In this document: positions 2-25,852 of the stretch, one piece after another | Numbering within the stretch: position 1 is the stretch's first letter | How the letters are laid out: the number at the start of each line of letters is the position of its first letter | Source of the DNA: Dehalococcoidia bacterium | Lineage (GTDB): Bacteria; Chloroflexota; Dehalococcoidia; UBA2979 | DNA length: 64,000 nucleotides | Assembly (NCBI GenBank): GCA_028279505.1 | Contig: JANQNP010000067.1 | Span: 9 to 64,008 of the forward strand | Reading direction: 5' to 3' | Position numbers and translations under genes: made by a program | The notes under the pieces: generated by a model | The model's database searches: none | The model's input: the letters and a program-made list of their open reading frames with translations, nothing else | Told to the model about the DNA's origin: nothing

Positions 2-187
2 CTGCTCGCCCTCGGCGGCATCACCGCGCTGACCCGCGTCGCGCTCACCCCGCTCTCGGTCCTCGGGACCGACGCCTTCGGCGTCGACTCGGTGATCTTC
101 CTCCTCGTCGGCGTCGCCGCCCTCGCTGCGGCAGCCCGCGCCTCGGATCCGGCTCGCGCCCCGACCGAGACGGCAGCGACCAGCTGA
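2..187 (+). CDS. 3' end of a membrane-protein gene whose start lies outside the window (partial)
   Basis: Frame-2 ORF runs off the 5' edge of the window; hydrophobic TM-like tail LLALGGITALTRVALTPLSVLG...VIFLLVGVAALAAAARA; codons strongly GC3-rich; TGA at 185-187. Absent from the ORF track because it has no in-window start. Confidence 0.4.
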   Translation: MLALGGITALTRVALTPLSVLGTDAFGVDSVIFLLVGVAALAAAARASDPARAPTETAATS

Positions 188-671
188 CGCCGGCCGCCTG
201 GTACACGCGCTTCAACTCCTCGAAGCGGCTGTCGCCCTCCGACGGCGGAACGAGCACGCCGGTGTCGATGTACGTCCCGAGGCGTTCGAGGATCTCGTGC
301 CACCCGGCCGCCGCCCCGAGGATATGCGACGCCGGGATGTACTGCACGAGCGTCACCAGCGTCTCTCCGTCGCCGACCTCGACGAGGTCGAACCGCACGA
401 GGCCGGGCGCAACGTTCACGTCGTCCCACGTGAACTCGAAGATGTACGGCGCCTGCATCACCTTCACCGTGCCGTTCAGACCAGCGTCCGCCCGCTGGAT
501 CCGCCCACCCTCACGAGGTTCCAGCACCTCGCATTTCCACCACAGCGCCAGCTCCTCGGGACTCGTGATCGCCGCCCAGGTCTGCTCGATTGCAGCGCCA
601 ATCACCCGCCTCACCTCCAGGCGCCGCGCCGCCCCATGCCCCGCGATCGTCGCCAGCTCGTCGTTACTCAC
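45..671 (-). CDS. SRPBCC / Aha1-domain protein (ArsR-associated), cassette 1
   Basis: Aha1/SRPBCC-like sequence (ELALWW..., AAAGWHEILERL). GTG start at 671-669 overlaps the ArsR stop by 8 nt. Paralogous to ORFs 9848..10372 and 20331..20834. The C-terminal 47 aa Arg-rich tail is AT3-rich and antisense to the 2..187 gene, so the true stop is uncertain. Confidence 0.7.
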   Translation of the reverse strand: MSNDELATIAGHGAARRLEVRRVIGAAIEQTWAAITSPEELALWWKCEVLEPREGGRIQRADAGLNGTVKVMQAPYIFEFTWDDVNVAPGLVRFDLVEVGDGETLVTLVQYIPASHILGAAAGWHEILERLGTYIDTGVLVPPSEGDSRFEELKRVYQAAGVSWSLPSRSGREPDPRRGLPQRGRRRRRGGRSPSRRRRRRSRGPRAG

Positions 672-1044
672 CGGAGGTCCCCCCACTCCTGCGCGACTCA
701 CGGCCCGTCCGGCCACCCGCCGCGCCAGCAGCGAGATGCGCCTCTAGGTCGTCGAGGCTCCTCTCCCAGAAGGTTCGCTGGTCCGCCAGCCACTGCTCGG
801 CCGTCCGCATCGCATCCGCCGTCATCCGGCAGATGCGCACTCGGCCCACCTTCTCCGTGCGCACCAACCCGCTCCGCTCCAGCACCTTGATGTGCTGAAC
901 GAACGACGGCAGCGCCATGTCGAACGGTTCTGCCAGCTCCGAGACCGATGCCTGCCCGCGGCTCAGCCGCGACACCACGATCCGCCGTGTCGGATCGGCG
1001 AGGGCGTGAAACACTTCGTCGAGAGTCGCGGATTGGTTAGCCAT
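664..1044 (-). CDS. ArsR/SmtB-family HTH transcriptional regulator, cassette 1
   Basis: ArsR winged-helix signature FHALADPTRRIVVSRL...SVSELAEPFDMALPSFVQHIKVLERSGLV; ATG at 1044-1042. Confidence 0.85.
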   Translation of the reverse strand: MANQSATLDEVFHALADPTRRIVVSRLSRGQASVSELAEPFDMALPSFVQHIKVLERSGLVRTEKVGRVRICRMTADAMRTAEQWLADQRTFWERSLDDLEAHLAAGAAGGRTGRESRRSGGTSGE

Positions 1045-1046
1045 GT

Positions 1047-1077
1047 ACCTAACTATCCTTGAGCTGAACAGTTAGGT
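1047..1077. promoter_or_regulatory. Perfect 8 bp inverted repeat ACCTAACT-N15-AGTTAGGT abutting the ArsR start; candidate operator overlapping a -35/-10-like promoter of a leaderless transcript
   Basis: Read directly: ACCTAACTatccttgagctgaacAGTTAGGT. On the minus strand this reads TTGACC-N18-ATAGTTAGGTAC-ATG. Confidence 0.45.
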
Positions 1078-1281
1078 CAACAGCTAAGTGTCGCTCCGAG
1101 TCGCACGAGAGGGGTCAGGGTGGTCGCAGTCGATCGACAGCAGTAAGCACGGGCCGCCACGCGCTGGCTCTACATCGCGAACACCGCCCTGCTCGCGACG
1201 CACCAGGTCGACGCGGCCTACTGGGAGGAGTGGGACACGTTCCGCCTGCCAATCGGCATCGAGGGCTTCCTCCTCTTCACC

Positions 1282-1521
1282 GTGGCGGTGCTGATATCCG
1301 TCCTCCACGGCCTCGGCCAGGTCGCCCGCCGCGAGCCTGGAGCGGAGCGCTGGTCGTACGCGATCGCGGCGCTGGGCGTCTTCACCTTCACCCTGCACGC
1401 GGTCATCCTCGCCCTCGGAAACGACGACTTCCGCAGCGCCACCTCGCTCGCACTGCTGCTCGCGATCCTCGGCGTCGCGGTCGCCCAGGCCCTCGCCACG
1501 AGGCGAGTCACCACGAGCTGA
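1282..1521 (+). CDS. Small hydrophobic membrane protein, divergent from ArsR; true start probably upstream and non-canonical
   Basis: The open frame begins at 1147, after a TAA at 1144-1146. The first GTG (1282) falls inside a TM helix (FLLFTVAVLISVLHGL), which suggests an earlier CTG or another start. Three predicted TM helices. Confidence 0.3.
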   Translation: MAVLISVLHGLGQVARREPGAERWSYAIAALGVFTFTLHAVILALGNDDFRSATSLALLLAILGVAVAQALATRRVTTS

Positions 1522-1603
1522 CGAACGACGGCGACCTCCGATCGTTGATCGATCTGTGGCCCGCGACACGCAACCTCCCGAGGTGGCCCGGCAGGATCAA
1601 CCT

Positions 1604-3313
1604 ATGACGCACCGCCGCACCCTCGCCCTCCTCGCGACCTTCGCACTAGCGATCGTCGCCGCCTGCGGCGGCGACTCAGACGAGCCGAGCGGGGCCCCAA
1701 CCACCGAGGACCGCGCCGCCCCCGCCTTCAGCAGCGTCACCGTCGACGGCCCGCTCGACGTCACCGTCCGACTGAAACGCGGTGCCCCCGAGCGAATCGA
1801 GGTCACCGCACCCGGCGGCGGCCACGAGCGCATCGTCACCTCGGTCGAGAGCGGCGCGGCCACCGTCACCGCCGACAGCGAACCGCTCGAGGGCACGTCG
1901 GTCCTCCTCGTGGTCGCCACGCTCGAGGCCATCGACGCCACCGAGGGCGCATCCGTCTCCCTCGTCGGCGAGGTGGAGCTCCCCGTCTTCGAGGCCGCGG
2001 CGACCGCCGGCGCCTCGATCGTCGCCCGCGACGTGATCGGCTTCGAGCGGACCAGCGGCTCCTGGCAGCTCCGCGTCGAGGGCGACTCGACCATCGACCT
2101 CGCCGAGATCCTCGCCTCGTCGGTCAACGTCGAGGCGAGCGGGCGCAGCACCGTCACCGTCGAAGCCCTGATCTCGGTCACCGGCACCGTCGAGCCCGGC
2201 GCGACCCTCGAGGTGCTCGGCTCACCGAACCGCGTCGACGTCACCGGTGGCGGCTTCGTCCGAGCGGAGCCAGCGGAGCCGATAACGCCACCAACCGACC
2301 CGGCGCCCGAACGCCCAGACGCCCTCACCGGCGCCCCGCTCCCCGCGCTCGAAACCGAGTCCGTCGCCTTCGACGAAGACCGCTTCAACCCGAGCGCCGG
2401 CACCTTCCCCGCGCTCACCGATCCCGCGGTCGTCCCCGCCGAGGATGCCCGTTGGCTCGACGACGACACGCTCGTCCTCGGCGCGACGCAGAACGGCGAG
2501 GCCCGCGCCTACCCGATCTTCATGCTCACGTTTCATCACGTCGCGAACGACACCCTCGGCGGAGAGCCCTACCTCGTCACCTTCTGAATCGTCTGCTCAT
2601 CGGGGGTCGGCTTCGACCCCCTCCGACCCAGCGAAGACGGCGGCGGCGACCGCCTCCTCTTCCACACCGCCGGCATCTACAACGGCGTCTTCACGATGTT
2701 CGACGACCGCACCGGCAGCGTCTGGTCACACCTCGACGGTCGCGCCCTCGGCGGCGAACTGGCCGGCGAGGCCCTCGAGGTGCTCCCGCTCCAGACCACG
2801 ACCTGGTCAGCCTGGGTCGCCGACCACCCCGAAACCACCGTGCTCGCGCTCGACACCGGATACCGCTACCGCAATGAGGTGAGGCTCGCCGGTGGCGGCC
2901 TCGGCCACACCTTCGCCGACAGCCTCGTCAGCACCGACGATCGCCTGCCCATCAACGAACTGGTAATCGGCGTGCTCGTCGGCCAGCAGGCCGCCGCCTT
3001 CCCCGTCGACGTCATCCGCGAGGACGTCCCGCTCCACGCCGATGTCGACGGCGTCCCCATCGTCATCCTCGCCGACACCGAGGGCGAGCCCTCGCTCGCC
3101 TACCACCGCGCCCTCACCGACGGCCGCGTCCTCGACTTCGAGCGTTCCGAGGACGGCACCCTCCACGACACCCAAACGGCTTCCCGCTGGACCTCGAGCG
3201 GCCTCGCCGTCGACGGCGAGCTCGCCGGCGTCCAGCTCACCTTCGTCACCTCGTTCCTCAGCGAGTGGTACGGCTGGGCCGCCTTCCACCCTGAAACCAC
3301 GATCGAGGGCTAG
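1604..3313 (+). CDS. Lipoprotein with a GIN/DUF2807-like beta-rich region and a C-terminal DUF3179 domain, interrupted by one in-frame TGA (2585-2587); either a candidate selenocysteine codon or a pseudogene
   Basis: Signal peptide with lipobox MTHRRTLALLATFALAIVAACGG. ORFs 1556..2587 and 2696..3313 are both in frame 2 and separated only by TGA. Read-through gives ...GGEPYLVTF-[TGA]-IVCSSGVGFD...FTMFDDRTGSVWSHLDG..., continuous DUF3179 sequence. Confidence 0.7.
2602..2621 (+). other. GC-rich hairpin (8 bp stem GGGGGTCG/CGACCCCC, loop GCTT) starting 15 nt after the in-frame TGA; SECIS-like position
   Basis: Seen in sequence. There is no U-tract after the hairpin and the reading frame continues with homologous sequence. 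Confidence 0.4.
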
Positions 3314-3374
3314 CCTCCGTCGCGCCGACCGCTCGACGTTCGGGACCTGGACGCGGCCACCACCCCGCTCGCAC

Positions 3375-3412
3375 GAGGCGCGAAGCGTCAACCGAGGGGT
3401 CGAAGACCCCTC
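3375..3412. repeat. Dispersed intergenic element, copy A: GAGGCGCGAAGCGTC + aacc + hairpin GAGGGGTC-GAA-GACCCCTC
   Basis: Lies between convergent genes; the hairpin overlaps the SDR stop codon (3411-3413). Related copies are at 33235-33270, 43899-43935 and 44992-45025. Confidence 0.6.
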
Positions 3413-4187
3413 AGAAGCCGCCGCCGTTCACGCGGATCTTCTGGTTGGTGATGTAGCGGCCATCCTCGCCGACGAGGTGGGCCACCGTCGCTGCGATGTC
3501 GGCGGGCTCGCAGACGTACCCGAACGGCGAGCTGGCGTCGCGCTCGCGCATATCGACGTCGTCGTGGCCGGTCAGCGCCGAGACCAGCGCGCGACCCATA
3601 TCCGTGTCGACCAGCCCCGGCGCCACGACGTTCACGCGAATCCCGTGCTCGCGCTCCTCCTTGGCGAGGGTGTGCGCCATCGCCTCCATCGCCGCCTTGC
3701 TGAGCGCGTACAGCCCGTAGCCCGGCGCCATCCCTTCCGTCGCCACCGAGGAGATCATCACCACGTCCCCACGATCGGCCGCTCGCATCTGCGGCACCAG
3801 CGCCTGGACGGTGTGAATCGCGCCCCAGAGGTTCGCGCCGAGCAGCGTCTGGTACTGCTCCGTCGTCGCCTCCGTGATCTTCGGCCGGTTCACGTACGCC
3901 GACCCGAGCCCGGCGTTGTTCACAAGGATGTCGATCCGCCCGAGGTCCCCGACCGCCTGCTCGCACATCGCCTCAACGGCGGCGCGATCGGCTACGTCCG
4001 CCTGGTACACCTCCGCCCGCCGCCCGAGCGCCCGCACCTCGTCGGCGACCTCGTTCGCGGCCTCGGCGTTGTTCGCGTAGTTGATCGCCACGTCGGCGCC
4101 ATCCGCCGCAAGCCGCACGCAGATCGCGCGGCCGATGCCGCGGCTGCCACCGGTCACCAGCGCCGTTCGTCCCTCGAGACCTGCCAT
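3411..4187 (-). CDS. SDR-family oxidoreductase (FabG-like 3-oxoacyl reductase)
   Basis: TGGSRGIGRAI Rossmann motif, NNAG, YxxxK (YALSKAA), PGLVDTDM. Confidence 0.9.
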   Translation of the reverse strand: MAGLEGRTALVTGGSRGIGRAICVRLAADGADVAINYANNAEAANEVADEVRALGRRAEVYQADVADRAAVEAMCEQAVGDLGRIDILVNNAGLGSAYVNRPKITEATTEQYQTLLGANLWGAIHTVQALVPQMRAADRGDVVMISSVATEGMAPGYGLYALSKAAMEAMAHTLAKEEREHGIRVNVVAPGLVDTDMGRALVSALTGHDDVDMRERDASSPFGYVCEPADIAATVAHLVGEDGRYITNQKIRVNGGGF

Positions 4188-24185: not shown

Positions 24186-24743
24186 ATGCCGGAACTCGCC
24201 CTGATCTACACCACCCGCGAAGGCCAGACCGCGAAGGTCGCAGAGCGAATCGCCGAGCGGTTCCGCGCCGCCGGCTCGAACCAGGTCCAGGCGTTCACCG
24301 TCGCCGAGGCGCCACGTTCGATCGCCAACTTCGACGCAATCGCGATCGGCGGCTCCGTGCACTTCGGGCACTACGAGAGCGACCTGGTCACCTTCGTGAA
24401 GCGGCACGGCAACGAACTCGCCGCCCGCCCTTCCGCCTTCTTCTCCGTCAGCGGATCCGCTGGCTCGGACGTCGAGCCTTACGCCAGCGAGTCAGCTGGG
24501 TACGCCAGCGAATTCGTCGACGCGACCGGCTGGAACCCAGACGTCGTTGGCATCTTCGCCGGCGCCATCAAGTACACCCGCTACGGCTTCATCAAGAAGC
24601 GCGTCATGCGCCACATCGCCGGTCGCGAAGGCGAGCCAACCGACATCTCCCGCGACCACGAGCTCACCGACTGGGACGACGTCGACGCCTTCGCCGACGA
24701 CATCCTGCGCCACCTCGCCCCGGCCACGACCGGCGCCACCTAG
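24186..24743 (+). CDS. hemG: Flavodoxin-like menaquinone-dependent protoporphyrinogen oxidase (HemG family)
   Basis: LALIYTTREGQTAKVAERIA, IAIGGSVHFGHY, GAIKYTRYGF and LTDWDDV parallel E. coli HemG. RBS GGAGGAG lies 5 nt before the ATG. Confidence 0.75.
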   Translation: MPELALIYTTREGQTAKVAERIAERFRAAGSNQVQAFTVAEAPRSIANFDAIAIGGSVHFGHYESDLVTFVKRHGNELAARPSAFFSVSGSAGSDVEPYASESAGYASEFVDATGWNPDVVGIFAGAIKYTRYGFIKKRVMRHIAGREGEPTDISRDHELTDWDDVDAFADDILRHLAPATTGAT

Positions 24744-25852
24744 ACCGAGCGGAAGAACGCCCCCAGCCGCTCGGCGATCACCCCAGCCTGCGCCTCGCTC
24801 ACCTCTCGAGGATCGACGAGCACCACCCCGTCATCGAGGTGGTGGTTGCGTGTGCGAATGCTCGGCGACCCACCTTCGAGGAAGGCGACCAGCTCGCGCA
24901 CCTCGAACGCCCCGTCTGCCGCCCGGATCGCCACCCGTTCGATCGGCCGCCCCGCCTCGTCGCCGCGAATCGACGCCTCGACGGCGTCGACGCCTTCGAG
25001 CGCCGCGCACACGATCGCGTTCACCCGTCGCCGCCGCTCCAGCTCCGCGGCCTCGTCCTGCGATTCGTACCGTTCGAGGGCAACCAGCAGTCCGAGGATC
25101 TGCTCCTTGCCAACCTTCATCGGCCGCGCGATCCCGCGCGTCTGCGCCTCGCACGCCTCGATCAGGTCGCGCCGCCCGGCGATGAACCCGACCGTCGGCC
25201 CGCCGAACGCCTTCCCGCCGGAGTAGGCGACCAGGTCGCAACCCATCGCCACGTAGCGGCGAAGGTCCTCCTCGGCCGCCGCGTCGACCAGCACCGGCAC
25301 GCCCGCGGCATGCGCCAGCTCGATGCAACGTTCCAGGCCGACCATCCGCTCCTGCACGGAATGGTGCGACTGCACGTACATCAGGGCCGCCACCGGCGTG
25401 CCGTCCGCGAGCGCTCGCGCGAGCAGCTCCTCGGGCACGTTGTTCACCGAGCCGACTAGCTCCGGCCGCCCGCCTCCGAGGCGGATCATCTGTTCGACGG
25501 GTGCGCCGAAGTTGATCCAGTGGCCGCCCTGCACCAGCACCCGGTTCGTCCAGCCCTCGGAGTCCGGCAGCCGCGCCACCCGGTCCGGGTCCGCACCCGC
25601 CACCACCGCCGCGGTCGCGATCACGACCCCGGCCGCCGCCCCGGTCGTCACGCTCGCCGCCTCGGCCCCCGTGCGTTCCGCGATCAGCTCGCCGGCCCGC
25701 GCCCGCAGCGAAGCCAGGTCCACGTGCGAACCGGCCGCCTCGGCCTGAGCCTGCGCGACGTCTGGGTGCTGCGCCGTCCCACCGAGGGCGGTCAACTTGC
25801 CGGCGGCGTTGATCACCGGCGTCGCACCGAACTGCTCGTAGACGTTCGCCAT
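24740..25852 (-). CDS. SelA-like PLP-dependent enzyme (short SelA/DgaE-type, about 370 aa; lacks the N-terminal extension of true SelA)
   Basis: TPVINAAGKLTALGG and the PLP-Lys region SGGKAFGGPTVGFIAGRRDLI resemble the SelA family (SGDKLLGGPQAG). Confidence 0.75.
   Translation of the reverse strand: MANVYEQFGATPVINAAGKLTALGGTAQHPDVAQAQAEAAGSHVDLASLRARAGELIAERTGAEAASVTTGAAAGVVIATAAVVAGADPDRVARLPDSEGWTNRVLVQGGHWINFGAPVEQMIRLGGGRPELVGSVNNVPEELLARALADGTPVAALMYVQSHHSVQERMVGLERCIELAHAAGVPVLVDAAAEEDLRRYVAMGCDLVAYSGGKAFGGPTVGFIAGRRDLIEACEAQTRGIARPMKVGKEQILGLLVALERYESQDEAAELERRRRVNAIVCAALEGVDAVEASIRGDEAGRPIERVAIRAADGAFEVRELVAFLEGGSPSIRTRNHHLDDGVVLVDPREVSEAQAGVIAERLGAFFRSV

What the first reader, a model, noticed from the sequence alone, without database searches (positions are those of the whole stretch)
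1604..3313. In-frame UGA at the CxxC position of a DUF3179 domain with a downstream SECIS-like hairpin: candidate new selenoprotein or a pseudogene
Seen in sequence: ORFs 1556..2587 and 2696..3313 are both in frame 2 and separated only by TGA (2585-2587). Read-through gives ...GGEPYLVTF-U-IVCSSGVGFDPLR...MFDDRTGSVWSHLDG...TTWSAWVADHPETTVL. Established knowledge (from memory of DUF3179/PF11376 homologues): the equivalent stretch reads ...VT(Y/F)CPLCG(S/T)G..FDR...MYD..T.S.W.Q. The TGA therefore aligns with the first Cys of a CxxC redox-like motif, giving a U-x-x-C pattern, which is the classic way Sec replaces Cys. A stable hairpin (GGGGGTCG-GCTT-CGACCCCC, 2602-2621) starts 15 nt after the UGA, inside the bacterial SECIS spacing range, and no U-tract follows. 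The N-terminal half is a lipobox lipoprotein with a GIN/DUF2807-like beta-rich region, so the product would be an extracytoplasmic Sec/Cys redox lipoprotein. I do not recall DUF3179 being a described selenoprotein family. A SelA-family gene lies at 24740..25852, but it is the short SelA-like type.
Basis: partly seen in the sequence, partly recalled or inferred. Interest (0 to 1): 0.85.

Follow-up and report, generated by a model that had tools for sequence, protein, structure and literature searches.

The report
Selenocysteine-coding DUF3179 lipoprotein gene, family already known
The in-frame TGA at 2585-2587 is almost certainly a real selenocysteine codon in one 569-residue secreted lipoprotein gene that annotation splits in two, but DUF3179 is already a listed selenoprotein family, so this is a new member and not a new kind.

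Summary
Window 1604-3313 is one reading frame interrupted only by TGA 2585-2587. Pfam DUF3179 spans the TGA, and the TGA aligns with the first Cys of the homologues' CxxC.

Eleven distinct related genes from independent assemblies (37-77% identical in the part before the TGA) all carry TGA at this codon. No orthologue with a Cys codon was found.

The 36 codons between the TGA and the next start codon are under purifying selection (dN/dS 0.36; 0.07 in the conserved block). They can only be translated by read-through.

The hairpin 2602-2621 is kept in all 11 genes. Three of its 8 pairs show compensatory changes, a rare GGG codon is fixed in the stem, and it meets every published bacterial SECIS criterion.

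Pseudogene, sequencing error and split protein are rejected.

Two reviews (2022, 2026) already list "DUF3179 domain-containing protein, UxxC/T" as a selenoprotein family, citing Zhang and Gladyshev 2007. Of the 150 closest cluster representatives, 111 end exactly at this residue.

The SelA-like gene at 24740-25852 is a DgaE-family lyase, not SelA. The selA/B/C/D genes could not be checked.

Only three things are possibly new:
- the DUF2807 fusion;
- a link to TlpA-like redoxins;
- a Rieske-like fold for DUF3179.

The parts
1604..3313 (+). One complete gene of 569 codons (Sec at codon 328), currently called as two ORFs: 1604-2587 (P0001, 327 aa) and 2696-3313 (P0038, 205 aa)
   Evidence: Translation. 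Pfam DUF3179 spans the TGA. The same split calls appear in all orthologue loci.
1604..1666 (+). Signal peptide with lipobox (…AIVAA-C21-GG); Cys21 codon at 1664-1666
   Evidence: The sequence MTHRRTLALLATFALAIVAACGG. All 8 orthologues have the pattern [AV]-A-C-[GS], and Cys21 is invariant. This is a pattern match only; no lipoprotein predictor was run.
1724..2227 (+). DUF2807 / GIN (adhesin-head-like) beta-rich domain, residues 41-208
   Evidence: Pfam PF10988, 1.8e-13, 51.1 bits against a cut-off of 24.2.
2402..3298 (+). DUF3179 domain, residues 267-565, interrupted by the TGA
   Evidence: Pfam PF11376, 1e-58, 199.5 bits, profile positions 3-292 of 292.
2534..2539 (+). His311-His312 codons (CAT CAC). 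H311 is nearly invariant in the family; position 312 is H or E. They may be partners of the U/C site.
   Evidence: Alignments A3 and A4. The spacing of 15 residues to U328 resembles the Rieske H...CxxH spacing. This is inference only.
2585..2587 (+). In-frame TGA, predicted selenocysteine codon U328, first position of U-I-V-C
   Evidence: TGA at the homologous codon in 11 of 11 related genes. It aligns with Cys of CxxC in full-length homologues.
2594..2596 (+). Cys331 codon (TGC), second position of the UxxC motif
   Evidence: Invariant in orthologues. At least 90% conserved in the DUF3179 alignment A4 (C160 of P0009).
2588..2695 (+). 36 codons between the TGA and the first possible start codon (ATG 2696); translatable only by read-through
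   Evidence: the ORF listing gives 2696 as the first ATG/GTG/TTG after the stop. dN/dS is 0.36 overall and 0.07 for codons 350-364, similar to the rest of the domain at 0.25-0.29.
2602..2621 (+). Bacterial SECIS-type hairpin: 8-bp stem GGGGGUCG/CGACCCCC, apical loop GCUU (2610-2613), 22 nt between the UGA and the loop
   Evidence: Minimum-free-energy fold. RNAalifold consensus. In 11 sequences, 97.7% of cells are paired, 3 of 8 pairs have compensatory changes, and 0 of 500 shuffles reach the covariation score. The stem Gly codon is GGG in 9 of 9 although GGG makes up 13% of Gly codons. The hairpin meets the bSECIS criteria quoted.

Best explanation
Window 1604-3313 is a single gene for a 569-residue extracytoplasmic lipoprotein made of a DUF2807/GIN domain and a DUF3179 domain. 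UGA 2585-2587 is decoded as selenocysteine. The hairpin 2602-2621 is read as a bacterial SECIS that recruits SelB carrying Sec-tRNA(Sec) to the ribosome paused at the UGA (inferred from the standard bacterial mechanism). The product carries a U328-I-V-C331 motif in place of the family's CxxC. After export and lipidation at Cys21, the Sec/Cys pair, probably together with the nearly invariant His311 and His/Glu312, would form the reactive centre of the DUF3179 domain. That centre would be either a selenenylsulfide redox couple serviced by a TlpA-like membrane thiol reductase or a metal-binding site. The coding status and the RNA element are shown by comparative evidence. The use of Sec rather than another amino acid, the presence of the Sec machinery and the biochemical role are all inferred.
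For: 1. There is one frame with a single TGA, and Pfam DUF3179 spans it.
2. The TGA aligns with the first Cys of CxxC in full-length homologues.
3. All 9 distinct orthologues (54-77% identity before the TGA) and 2 more distant Sec-type DUF3179 genes without DUF2807 (L015 and L016, 44% and 37%) have TGA at the same codon, with the frame continuing about 240 codons to a conserved C-terminus.
4. No start codon exists between the TGA and 2696. That interval nevertheless has dN/dS 0.36, and 0.07 in its conserved block.
5. Synonymous diversity dips around the TGA: pS 0.18-0.24 against 0.3-0.5 elsewhere.
6. The hairpin is kept in 11 of 11 genes. Compensatory changes occur at three pairs: G-C to C-G, G-C to A-U, and C-G to U-A. 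97.7% of cells are paired and 0 of 500 shuffles reach the covariation score.
7. The stem Gly codon is fixed as the rare GGG, while the loop Gly codon varies freely.
8. The hairpin satisfies the published bSECIS model: 4-nt loop beginning with G, 7-8 bp stem, 22 nt spacing, minimum free energy -9.3 to -16.1 kcal/mol.
9. DUF3179 with motif UxxC/T is an already catalogued selenoprotein family.
10. 111 of the 150 closest 50%-identity cluster representatives end exactly at the residue before U.
11. The closest named genomes are Dehalococcoidia/Chloroflexi MAGs. That class contains MAGs with 46-49 predicted selenoprotein genes.
12. TGA is a normal stop for 11 of 37 window genes, so the code is not globally reassigned.
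13. For the redox link: a TlpA-like Redoxin (WCPPC) lies upstream in 5 of 5 orthologue loci with enough sequence, and P0068 is a natural Redoxin + 2x DUF3179 fusion.
Against: - No selA, selB, selD or tRNA-Sec was found in the window or in any locus held. This covers only a small fraction of each genome, and the rest could not be read.
- No Rfam SECIS model matches.
- The hairpin overlaps strongly conserved codons (SGVGFDP), so part of its conservation comes from the protein.
- Nothing here distinguishes Sec from another amino acid inserted at UGA.
- The TlpA-like neighbour is absent next to L015 and L016 and next to the Cys-type homologues examined.
- In some DUF3179 subfamilies the first Cys is replaced by D, S, N, H or R. 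This fits a metal ligand at least as well as a catalytic redox Cys.
Confidence: 0.88

Rival explanations
1. Pseudogene or assembly error: a nonsense mutation or miscalled base turned TGC/TGT into TGA and the gene is dead.
For: A single in-frame stop is what a fresh nonsense mutation looks like. Two related contigs, L006 and L010, do carry frameshifts.
Against: TGA is at the same codon in 11 distinct genes from independent assemblies and sequencing platforms, down to 37% identity. Downstream dN/dS is 0.29, and 0.07-0.36 in the interval without a start codon. 111 of 150 cluster representatives end at this residue. The frameshifted contigs are a 3x-coverage contig (L006, named as such) and a contig_N-named MAG (L010), both probably long-read assemblies. 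The protein resumes intact in another frame.
Confidence: 0.02
2. Split protein: the UGA is a true stop, and two polypeptides (residues 1-327 and 365-569) are made separately and assemble into one DUF3179 fold.
For: Gene callers produce exactly these two ORFs in every locus. ATG 2696 is conserved as Met365.
Against: The 36 codons between the TGA and ATG 2696 contain no ATG/GTG/TTG in frame. They are nonetheless conserved at protein level: IVCSSGVGFDP and RLLFHTAGIYNGVFT are invariant, with dN/dS 0.07-0.18. They include the nearly invariant second Cys of the family motif. In L015 and L016 the downstream ORF call starts elsewhere.
Confidence: 0.03
3. The UGA is recoded, but to an amino acid other than Sec. 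One route is Cys delivered by a tRNA-Sec-like tRNA(UCA) through SelB. Another is near-cognate Trp read-through stimulated by the hairpin.
For: Sequence analysis alone cannot identify the inserted residue. Unusual tRNA-Sec-type structures (8/4) have been reported in Chloroflexi and Actinobacteria (PMC5389517).
Against: The position is Cys in homologues and the family is catalogued as UxxC/T selenoproteins. The hairpin fits the SelB-type bSECIS model. Dehalococcoidia MAGs are among the most selenoprotein-rich bacteria. A Trp at a CxxC site would not be expected to stay under such strong selection.
Confidence: 0.06

Closest known systems
DUF3179 domain-containing selenoprotein family (PF11376, motif UxxC/T). 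Listed in Zhang et al. 2022 (PMC9312934) and the 2026 AEM review (PMC13188914), both attributing it to Zhang & Gladyshev 2007 (PMC1976440, Olavius delta-1 symbiont metagenome)
   Same: The Pfam domain is the same. Sec is at the first position of the family CxxC, giving UxxC. A SECIS-type hairpin follows directly. The function is unknown.
   Different: This member has an N-terminal DUF2807/GIN domain fused to it. Among 1.84 billion representatives, this fusion was seen only in its own cluster plus fragments. Its nearest named relatives are Dehalococcoidia/Chloroflexi MAGs and not Deltaproteobacteria. I could not retrieve the published example accessions (MBW1804167.1, MDJ0986319.1) to compare them directly.
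Escherichia coli fdhF-type bacterial SECIS and the consensus bSECIS model (criteria quoted in PMC13188914, Fig. 2 legend)
   Same: A stem-loop inside the coding region directly after the UGA. The loop has 4 nt with G first, the stem has 7-8 bp, 22 nt separate the UGA from the apical loop, and the minimum free energy is at or below -7.5 kcal/mol.
   Different: The loop is GCUU in the window, and G[G/U] in only 9 of the 11 genes. No conserved lower stem or bulge was found. No Rfam model matches. SelB binding is untested.
Extracytoplasmic thiol-disulfide selenoproteins with UxxC/CxxU motifs (DsbA-like, thiol:disulfide interchange, UGC-containing TlpA-family proteins listed in the same reviews)
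   Same: A secreted or membrane-anchored location, Sec replacing one Cys of a CxxC-type pair, and a genomic or fusion link with a TlpA-like redoxin.
Rieske [2Fe-2S] ferredoxin domain (for example T4moC 1vm9, NDO ferredoxin 2qpz)
   Different: The ligand set is HH...UxxC, not CxH...CxxH. There is no sequence similarity (hhalign probability 0.1; no PDB sequence hit). The residue-level superposition could not be inspected, and there is no evidence for an Fe-S cluster.

Membership tests
Bacterial selenoprotein gene (Sec-UGA decoding) | In-frame UGA aligned with Cys in homologues (Sec/Cys pair) with conserved flanks | tested here: met
   U328 aligns with the first Cys of CxxC in P0009-P0011, P0013-P0028 and P0034. 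The flanks PYLVTF and IVCSSG are conserved.
Bacterial selenoprotein gene (Sec-UGA decoding) | UGA conserved among orthologues, and sequence downstream of it under protein-level selection | tested here: met
   TGA in 11 of 11 genes. dN/dS is 0.36 in the start-codon-free interval and 0.29 further downstream.
Bacterial selenoprotein gene (Sec-UGA decoding) | bSECIS consensus: 3-9 nt apical loop, 4-16 bp upper stem, G in the first two loop positions, 16-37 nt from UGA to loop, minimum free energy <= -7.5 kcal/mol (PMC13188914) | tested here: met
   Loop GNUU (4 nt), stem 7-8 bp, 22 nt spacing, -9.3 to -16.1 kcal/mol in 11 of 11 genes. Covariation at 3 of 8 pairs.
Bacterial selenoprotein gene (Sec-UGA decoding) | selA, selB, selC (tRNA-Sec) and selD present in the same genome | not testable with these tools
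   None found in the 64 kb window or in the other loci held, about 190 kb in all. The rest of the genomes could not be read. There is only indirect support: Dehalococcoidia MAGs with 46-49 selenoprotein genes.
Bacterial selenoprotein gene (Sec-UGA decoding) | Selenium demonstrated in the protein (75Se labelling or mass spectrometry) | not testable with these tools
   This needs an experiment.
DUF3179 (PF11376), selenoprotein form UxxC/T | Pfam PF11376 match above the gathering score, with Sec at the first position of the family CxxC | tested here: met
   199.5 bits against a cut-off of 27, profile positions 3-292 of 292. The motif is U-I-V-C. The family is listed as UxxC/T.
DUF2807 / GIN domain (PF10988) | Pfam match above the gathering score | tested here: met
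   51.1 bits against a cut-off of 24.2, residues 41-208.
Bacterial lipoprotein (SPase II substrate) | N-terminal signal peptide ending in a lipobox [LVI][ASTVI][GAS]C | tested here: met
   ...AIVAAC21GG in the window. The equivalent Cys is invariant in 8 orthologues, and lipoboxes also occur in Sec-type relatives P0042-P0109. This is a pattern inspection only; no dedicated predictor was available.
SelA (L-seryl-tRNA(Sec) selenium transferase), for the gene at 24740-25852(-) | Score above the TIGR00474 cut-off | tested here: not met
   selA scores 48.9 bits against a cut-off of 267.9. The best matches are NF047797 DgaE (359 bits) and TIGR01437 selA_rel, DgaE family (355 bits).
Rieske [2Fe-2S] domain | CxH ... 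CxxH cluster-binding motifs | tested here: not met
   [not shown]
Thioredoxin-fold CxxC oxidoreductase | Thioredoxin fold carrying the CxxC | tested here: not met
   No thioredoxin-family Pfam hit on the protein. The model of homologue P0009 matches Rieske-type beta domains, not thioredoxin.

The most novel reading that the evidence does not exclude
DUF3179 is a duplicated Rieske-fold module that has exchanged the CxH/CxxH iron-sulfur ligands for a His-His/Glu ... (Sec/Cys)-x-x-Cys site. It would work outside the cytoplasmic membrane as a metal-handling or chalcogen-redox lipoprotein, kept reduced by a dedicated TlpA-like redoxin plus an Lgt-like Cys-pair membrane protein. The Sec forms, which dominate the closest relatives (111 of 150 clusters), would then be a large, systematically mis-annotated class of secreted selenoproteins with a non-thioredoxin active-site architecture. 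The DUF2807 fusion in this Dehalococcoidia-like lineage would tether that site to a cell-surface beta-rich scaffold.
Probability: 0.2. Interest if true: 0.55.

Novelty: new member of a known kind. Interest (0 to 1): 0.3.

Why it matters
For annotation, the two called ORFs (1604-2587 and 2696-3313) should be merged into one selenoprotein gene. The same mis-call affects over a hundred 50%-identity clusters of DUF3179 proteins in public collections.

For biology, this adds an extracytoplasmic, lipid-anchored selenoprotein to a lineage related to Dehalococcoidia/Chloroflexi MAGs. It also gives the uncharacterised DUF3179 family three testable leads:
- the Sec/Cys site lies in a Rieske-like beta domain;
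- there is a genomic and fusion link to TlpA-type thiol reductases;
- a compact 7-8 bp SECIS has clear covariation and could be used in reporter assays.

It does not open a new class, because the family has been catalogued as a selenoprotein since 2007.

Tried and rejected
- **Rfam.** The window at gathering threshold, 2540-2700 at E <= 10, and 7 loci at gathering threshold gave no SECIS or tRNA-Sec model hit. Bacterial SECIS elements are poorly represented in Rfam, so this says little.
- **ARAGORN.** The window and all loci gave no tRNA-Sec. An odd 95-nt 'tRNA-Ile' inside coding sequence at L009:1867-1961 is taken as a false positive.
- **Sec machinery in the window.** The SelA-like gene is DgaE family. 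Ten other large ORFs are unrelated enzymes or have no hit.
- **A first list of all same-frame ORF pairs split by one stop** was useless in this 69% GC sequence. It was replaced by a GC3/GC2 filter, which leaves only the TGA at 2585.
The closest Cys homologue, P0009, was modelled instead.
- **hhalign of the DUF3179 profile against the Rieske ferredoxin T4moC** gave no signal. The PDB sequence search with the profile gave no hit.
- **Genomic context of Cys-type homologues** P0011, P0013 and P0022 showed no recurring neighbours.
- **Wider scans.** The genome and metagenome scans returned only 2 and 1 loci, so the orthologue set stayed small.
- **Global reassignment of TGA** was rejected because 11 of 37 window genes end in TGA.
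Full report
**1.

Reading 1400-3500 and translating 1604-3313 gives one frame of 569 codons with a single internal stop, TGA at 2585-2587. The text around it is ...GGEPYLVTF-*-IVCSSGVGFDPLR.... ORF-listing runs 1556..2587 and 2696..3313 in the same frame. It shows no ATG/GTG/TTG between the TGA and 2696.

With Cys substituted at the stop, Pfam gives DUF3179 (PF11376, 1e-58, 199.5 bits, residues 267-565, full profile) across the TGA. It also gives DUF2807/GIN (PF10988, 51 bits, residues 41-208). The N-terminus MTHRRTLALLATFALAIVAAC-GG is a signal peptide with a lipobox.

The hairpin GGGGGTCG-GCTT-CGACCCCC at 2602-2621 is in the minimum-free-energy structure. A composition control shows this is the only TGA in the whole window, on either strand, with coding-type GC3/GC2 for 50 or more codons on both sides.

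**2. The TGA is conserved, not accidental**

A protein search with the read-through sequence returned eight proteins (P0001-P0008, 54-100% identity, 326-338 aa). All of them end at ...GGxPYL[VI]TF, the residue before the TGA. Their contigs were fetched. In every one the stop is TGA, and the frame continues for 241-244 codons of well conserved protein to ...FHP[ED]T[TS]I[ET]G-stop.

Scans of species-representative genomes and JGI metagenomes added three loci, all with TGA:
- L010, labelled 'MAG: Dehalococcoidia bacterium'
- L011, labelled 'MAG: Chloroflexi bacterium', the most divergent orthologue
- L012

No orthologue with TGC/TGT was found. L006 and L010 carry frameshifts. One is a 3x-coverage contig (named as such) and the other a contig_N-named MAG, so both are probably long-read assemblies. 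The protein resumes intact in another frame, so these are most likely assembly errors.

More distant full-length homologues mostly have Cys at this column: ILLCEMCGTG, LTFCPLCNST, LAYCTLCGSG, VTFCALCNSG. Some subfamilies have R, D, S, N or H there. The second Cys is nearly invariant.

**3. The stretch after the TGA is translated**

Nei-Gojobori estimates were made on a codon alignment of nine orthologues.

| Region | dN/dS |
|---|---|
| DUF3179 part upstream of the TGA | 0.25 |
| Annotated downstream ORF | 0.29 |
| 36 codons between TGA and ATG 2696 | 0.36 |
| Codons 329-340 | 0.18 |
| Codons 350-364 | 0.07 |

That interval has no start codon, so it can only be under protein-level selection if ribosomes read through the UGA. 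This rules out both the pseudogene and the two-polypeptide readings.

**4. The hairpin is under RNA-level selection and fits the bacterial SECIS model**

- Synonymous diversity falls to 0.18-0.24 around the TGA, against 0.3-0.5 elsewhere.
- In the nine orthologues the 7-bp core pairs in all. The only changes are G-U wobbles, and the single unconstrained loop base varies C/T/G.
- The stem Gly codon is GGG in 9 of 9, although GGG supplies 13% of Gly codons in these genes. It is the only one of 37 invariant-Gly columns fixed as GGG. The next Gly codon, in the loop, is the most variable.
- Two distant Sec-type DUF3179 genes without the DUF2807 domain also have TGA and a continuing frame. They are L015 from NCBI GCA_964347295.1 and L016 from ENA, 44% and 37% identical to the window protein. 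Both keep the hairpin through double changes: C-G to U-A in L015 and G-C to A-U in L016.
- On the 11-sequence alignment, 97.7% of cells pair and 3 of 8 pairs have compensatory changes. None of 500 column shuffles reaches the observed covariation score or percentage paired, and slid registers pair at only 38-69%.
- The published consensus bSECIS criteria are a 3-9 nt loop, a 4-16 bp stem, G in the first two loop positions, 16-37 nt from UGA to loop, and minimum free energy <= -7.5 kcal/mol (PMC13188914). All 11 hairpins meet them: GNUU loop, 7-8 bp stem, 22 nt spacing, -9.3 to -16.1 kcal/mol.
- No Rfam family matched, which is expected for bacterial SECIS elements.

**5. What could not be shown**

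No selA, selB, selD or tRNA-Sec lies in the window or in the loci held.

It scores 355 bits on TIGR01437 and 359 bits on NF047797, against 49 bits on selA with a cut-off of 268. It says nothing about Sec.

I could not read the rest of any genome. Indirect support comes from three points:
- The nearest named relatives are Dehalococcoidia/Chloroflexi MAGs.
- BSepDB lists Dehalococcoidia MAGs with 46-49 selenoprotein genes among the ten richest bacteria (PMC13326102).
- tRNA-Sec genes are known in Chloroflexi (PMC5389517).

TGA ends 11 of 37 compositionally supported genes in the window, so the codon is not globally reassigned.

**6. Comparison with what is known**

Two reviews list it in their tables of prokaryotic selenoproteins, both citing Zhang & Gladyshev 2007 on the Olavius symbiont metagenome:
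- 'Selenium Metabolism and Selenoproteins in Prokaryotes' (PMC9312934, 2022)
- 'Recent advances in exploring the composition and evolution of the prokaryotic selenoproteome' (PMC13188914, 2026)

The entry reads 'DUF3179 domain-containing protein, pfam11376, UxxC/T'.

An exhaustive HMMER search of 1.84 billion cluster representatives with the 327-aa N-terminal product supports this. Of the 150 best hits, 111 are short calls (43-258 aa) whose match ends both at query residue 327 and at their own C-terminus. Each of the ten retrieved has an N-terminal Cys-containing lipobox-like motif and ends ...GGEPYLVT[FYW] or the variant ...PF[VL]VTY. 29 continue as Cys forms such as P0110 ITYCSICNSG.

Sec-type DUF3179 lipoproteins are therefore common and are routinely split by gene callers. 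What is unusual here is the DUF2807 fusion, seen only in this cluster (P0006) and a few fragments. NCBIfam has no model for the protein.

**7. How it most likely works**

*Shown:* this is one gene. The UGA is read through, and a conserved SECIS-type hairpin follows it.

*Inferred from the standard bacterial mechanism:* SelB with Sec-tRNA(Sec) binds the hairpin and inserts Sec at codon 328. The precursor is then exported and lipidated at Cys21.

*For the chemistry there are two leads.*

- **Redox.** In every orthologue locus with enough upstream sequence, a membrane-anchored TlpA/ResA-like redoxin (motif WASWCPPCREE) is present. It is followed by a polytopic membrane protein with a weak Lgt match and a conserved CVARD[AG]C pair. 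These sit directly upstream of the gene in L003 and L008, and are separated from it by small inserts elsewhere. P0068 is a natural fusion of such a redoxin with two DUF3179 domains.

I could not inspect coordinates, and hhalign sees no sequence relationship. The Rieske mapping is therefore a hypothesis. The TlpA link is absent around L015, L016 and three Cys-type homologues.

**8. Verdict**

The gene is a genuine, currently mis-annotated selenoprotein gene (confidence about 0.88). It belongs to an already catalogued selenoprotein family, with a new domain fusion and in a lineage related to Dehalococcoidia. Interest is about 0.3. The residual novelty lies in the fusion, the redoxin link and the Rieske-like fold of DUF3179.

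Noticed in passing
L001:6381-7687; L003:8565-9945; L005:2288-3597; L008:4875-6130; L009:1334-2649 (off the left end of the window contig): A conserved gene pair lies upstream of the Sec gene in the orthologue loci. The first gene is a membrane-anchored TlpA/ResA-like redoxin (WASWCPPCREE). The second is a 235-252 aa polytopic membrane protein with a weak Pfam LGT match (E about 1e-6) and a conserved Cys pair, CVARD[AG]C. The pair sits directly upstream of the Sec gene in L003 and L008. In other loci TetR+FAD-monooxygenase or AHSA1+ArsR+DUF6713 genes are inserted in between.
   Followed up: partly
P0068 (1004 aa): A natural fusion of an AhpC-TSA/Redoxin domain (WATWCPPC) with two complete Cys-type DUF3179 domains. 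It links DUF3179 functionally to TlpA-like thiol reductases.
   Followed up: partly
[not shown]
   Followed up: partly
Protein-representative hits P0042-P0188: 111 of the 150 closest 50%-identity cluster representatives are truncated calls that end exactly at the residue before the Sec codon. Public gene calls therefore systematically split Sec-type DUF3179 lipoproteins into two ORFs.
   Followed up: partly
window 24740-25852 (-): The 'SelA-like' gene is a DgaE-family PLP-dependent ammonia lyase (TIGR01437 selA_rel 355 bits, NF047797 359 bits). It is not a selenocysteine synthase.
   Followed up: yes
whole window, 37 compositionally supported genes: Stop-codon usage is TAG 21, TGA 11 and TAA 5. 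From general knowledge, TGA usually dominates at this GC content (69%). Whether this reflects avoidance of TGA in a Sec-rich lineage was not examined.
   Followed up: no
L006:11100-11200 and L010:10001-11749: Frameshifts occur inside the orthologous gene in a 3x-coverage contig (L006) and a contig_N-named MAG (L010), both probably long-read assemblies. The protein resumes intact in another frame, so these are probably assembly indels and not decay.
   Followed up: partly
L009:1867-1961: ARAGORN calls a 95-nt 'tRNA-Ile(gat)' that straddles the redoxin / Lgt-like gene junction. It is probably a false positive inside coding sequence. Rfam found no tRNA there.
   Followed up: partly
window 2639-2654: A second GC-rich hairpin, GGCGG-CGGCGA-CCGCC, lies in the variable Gly/Asp-rich linker after the SECIS-type hairpin. 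This stretch is not conserved in sequence or length among the orthologues, so the hairpin is unlikely to be functional.
   Followed up: partly
window 45-1521: Upstream of the gene lie an AHSA1/SRPBCC-like ORF and an ArsR-type HTH ORF on the minus strand, and a DUF6713 fragment (1282-1521, +). The same trio lies between the Lgt-like gene and the Sec gene in L005.
   Followed up: no
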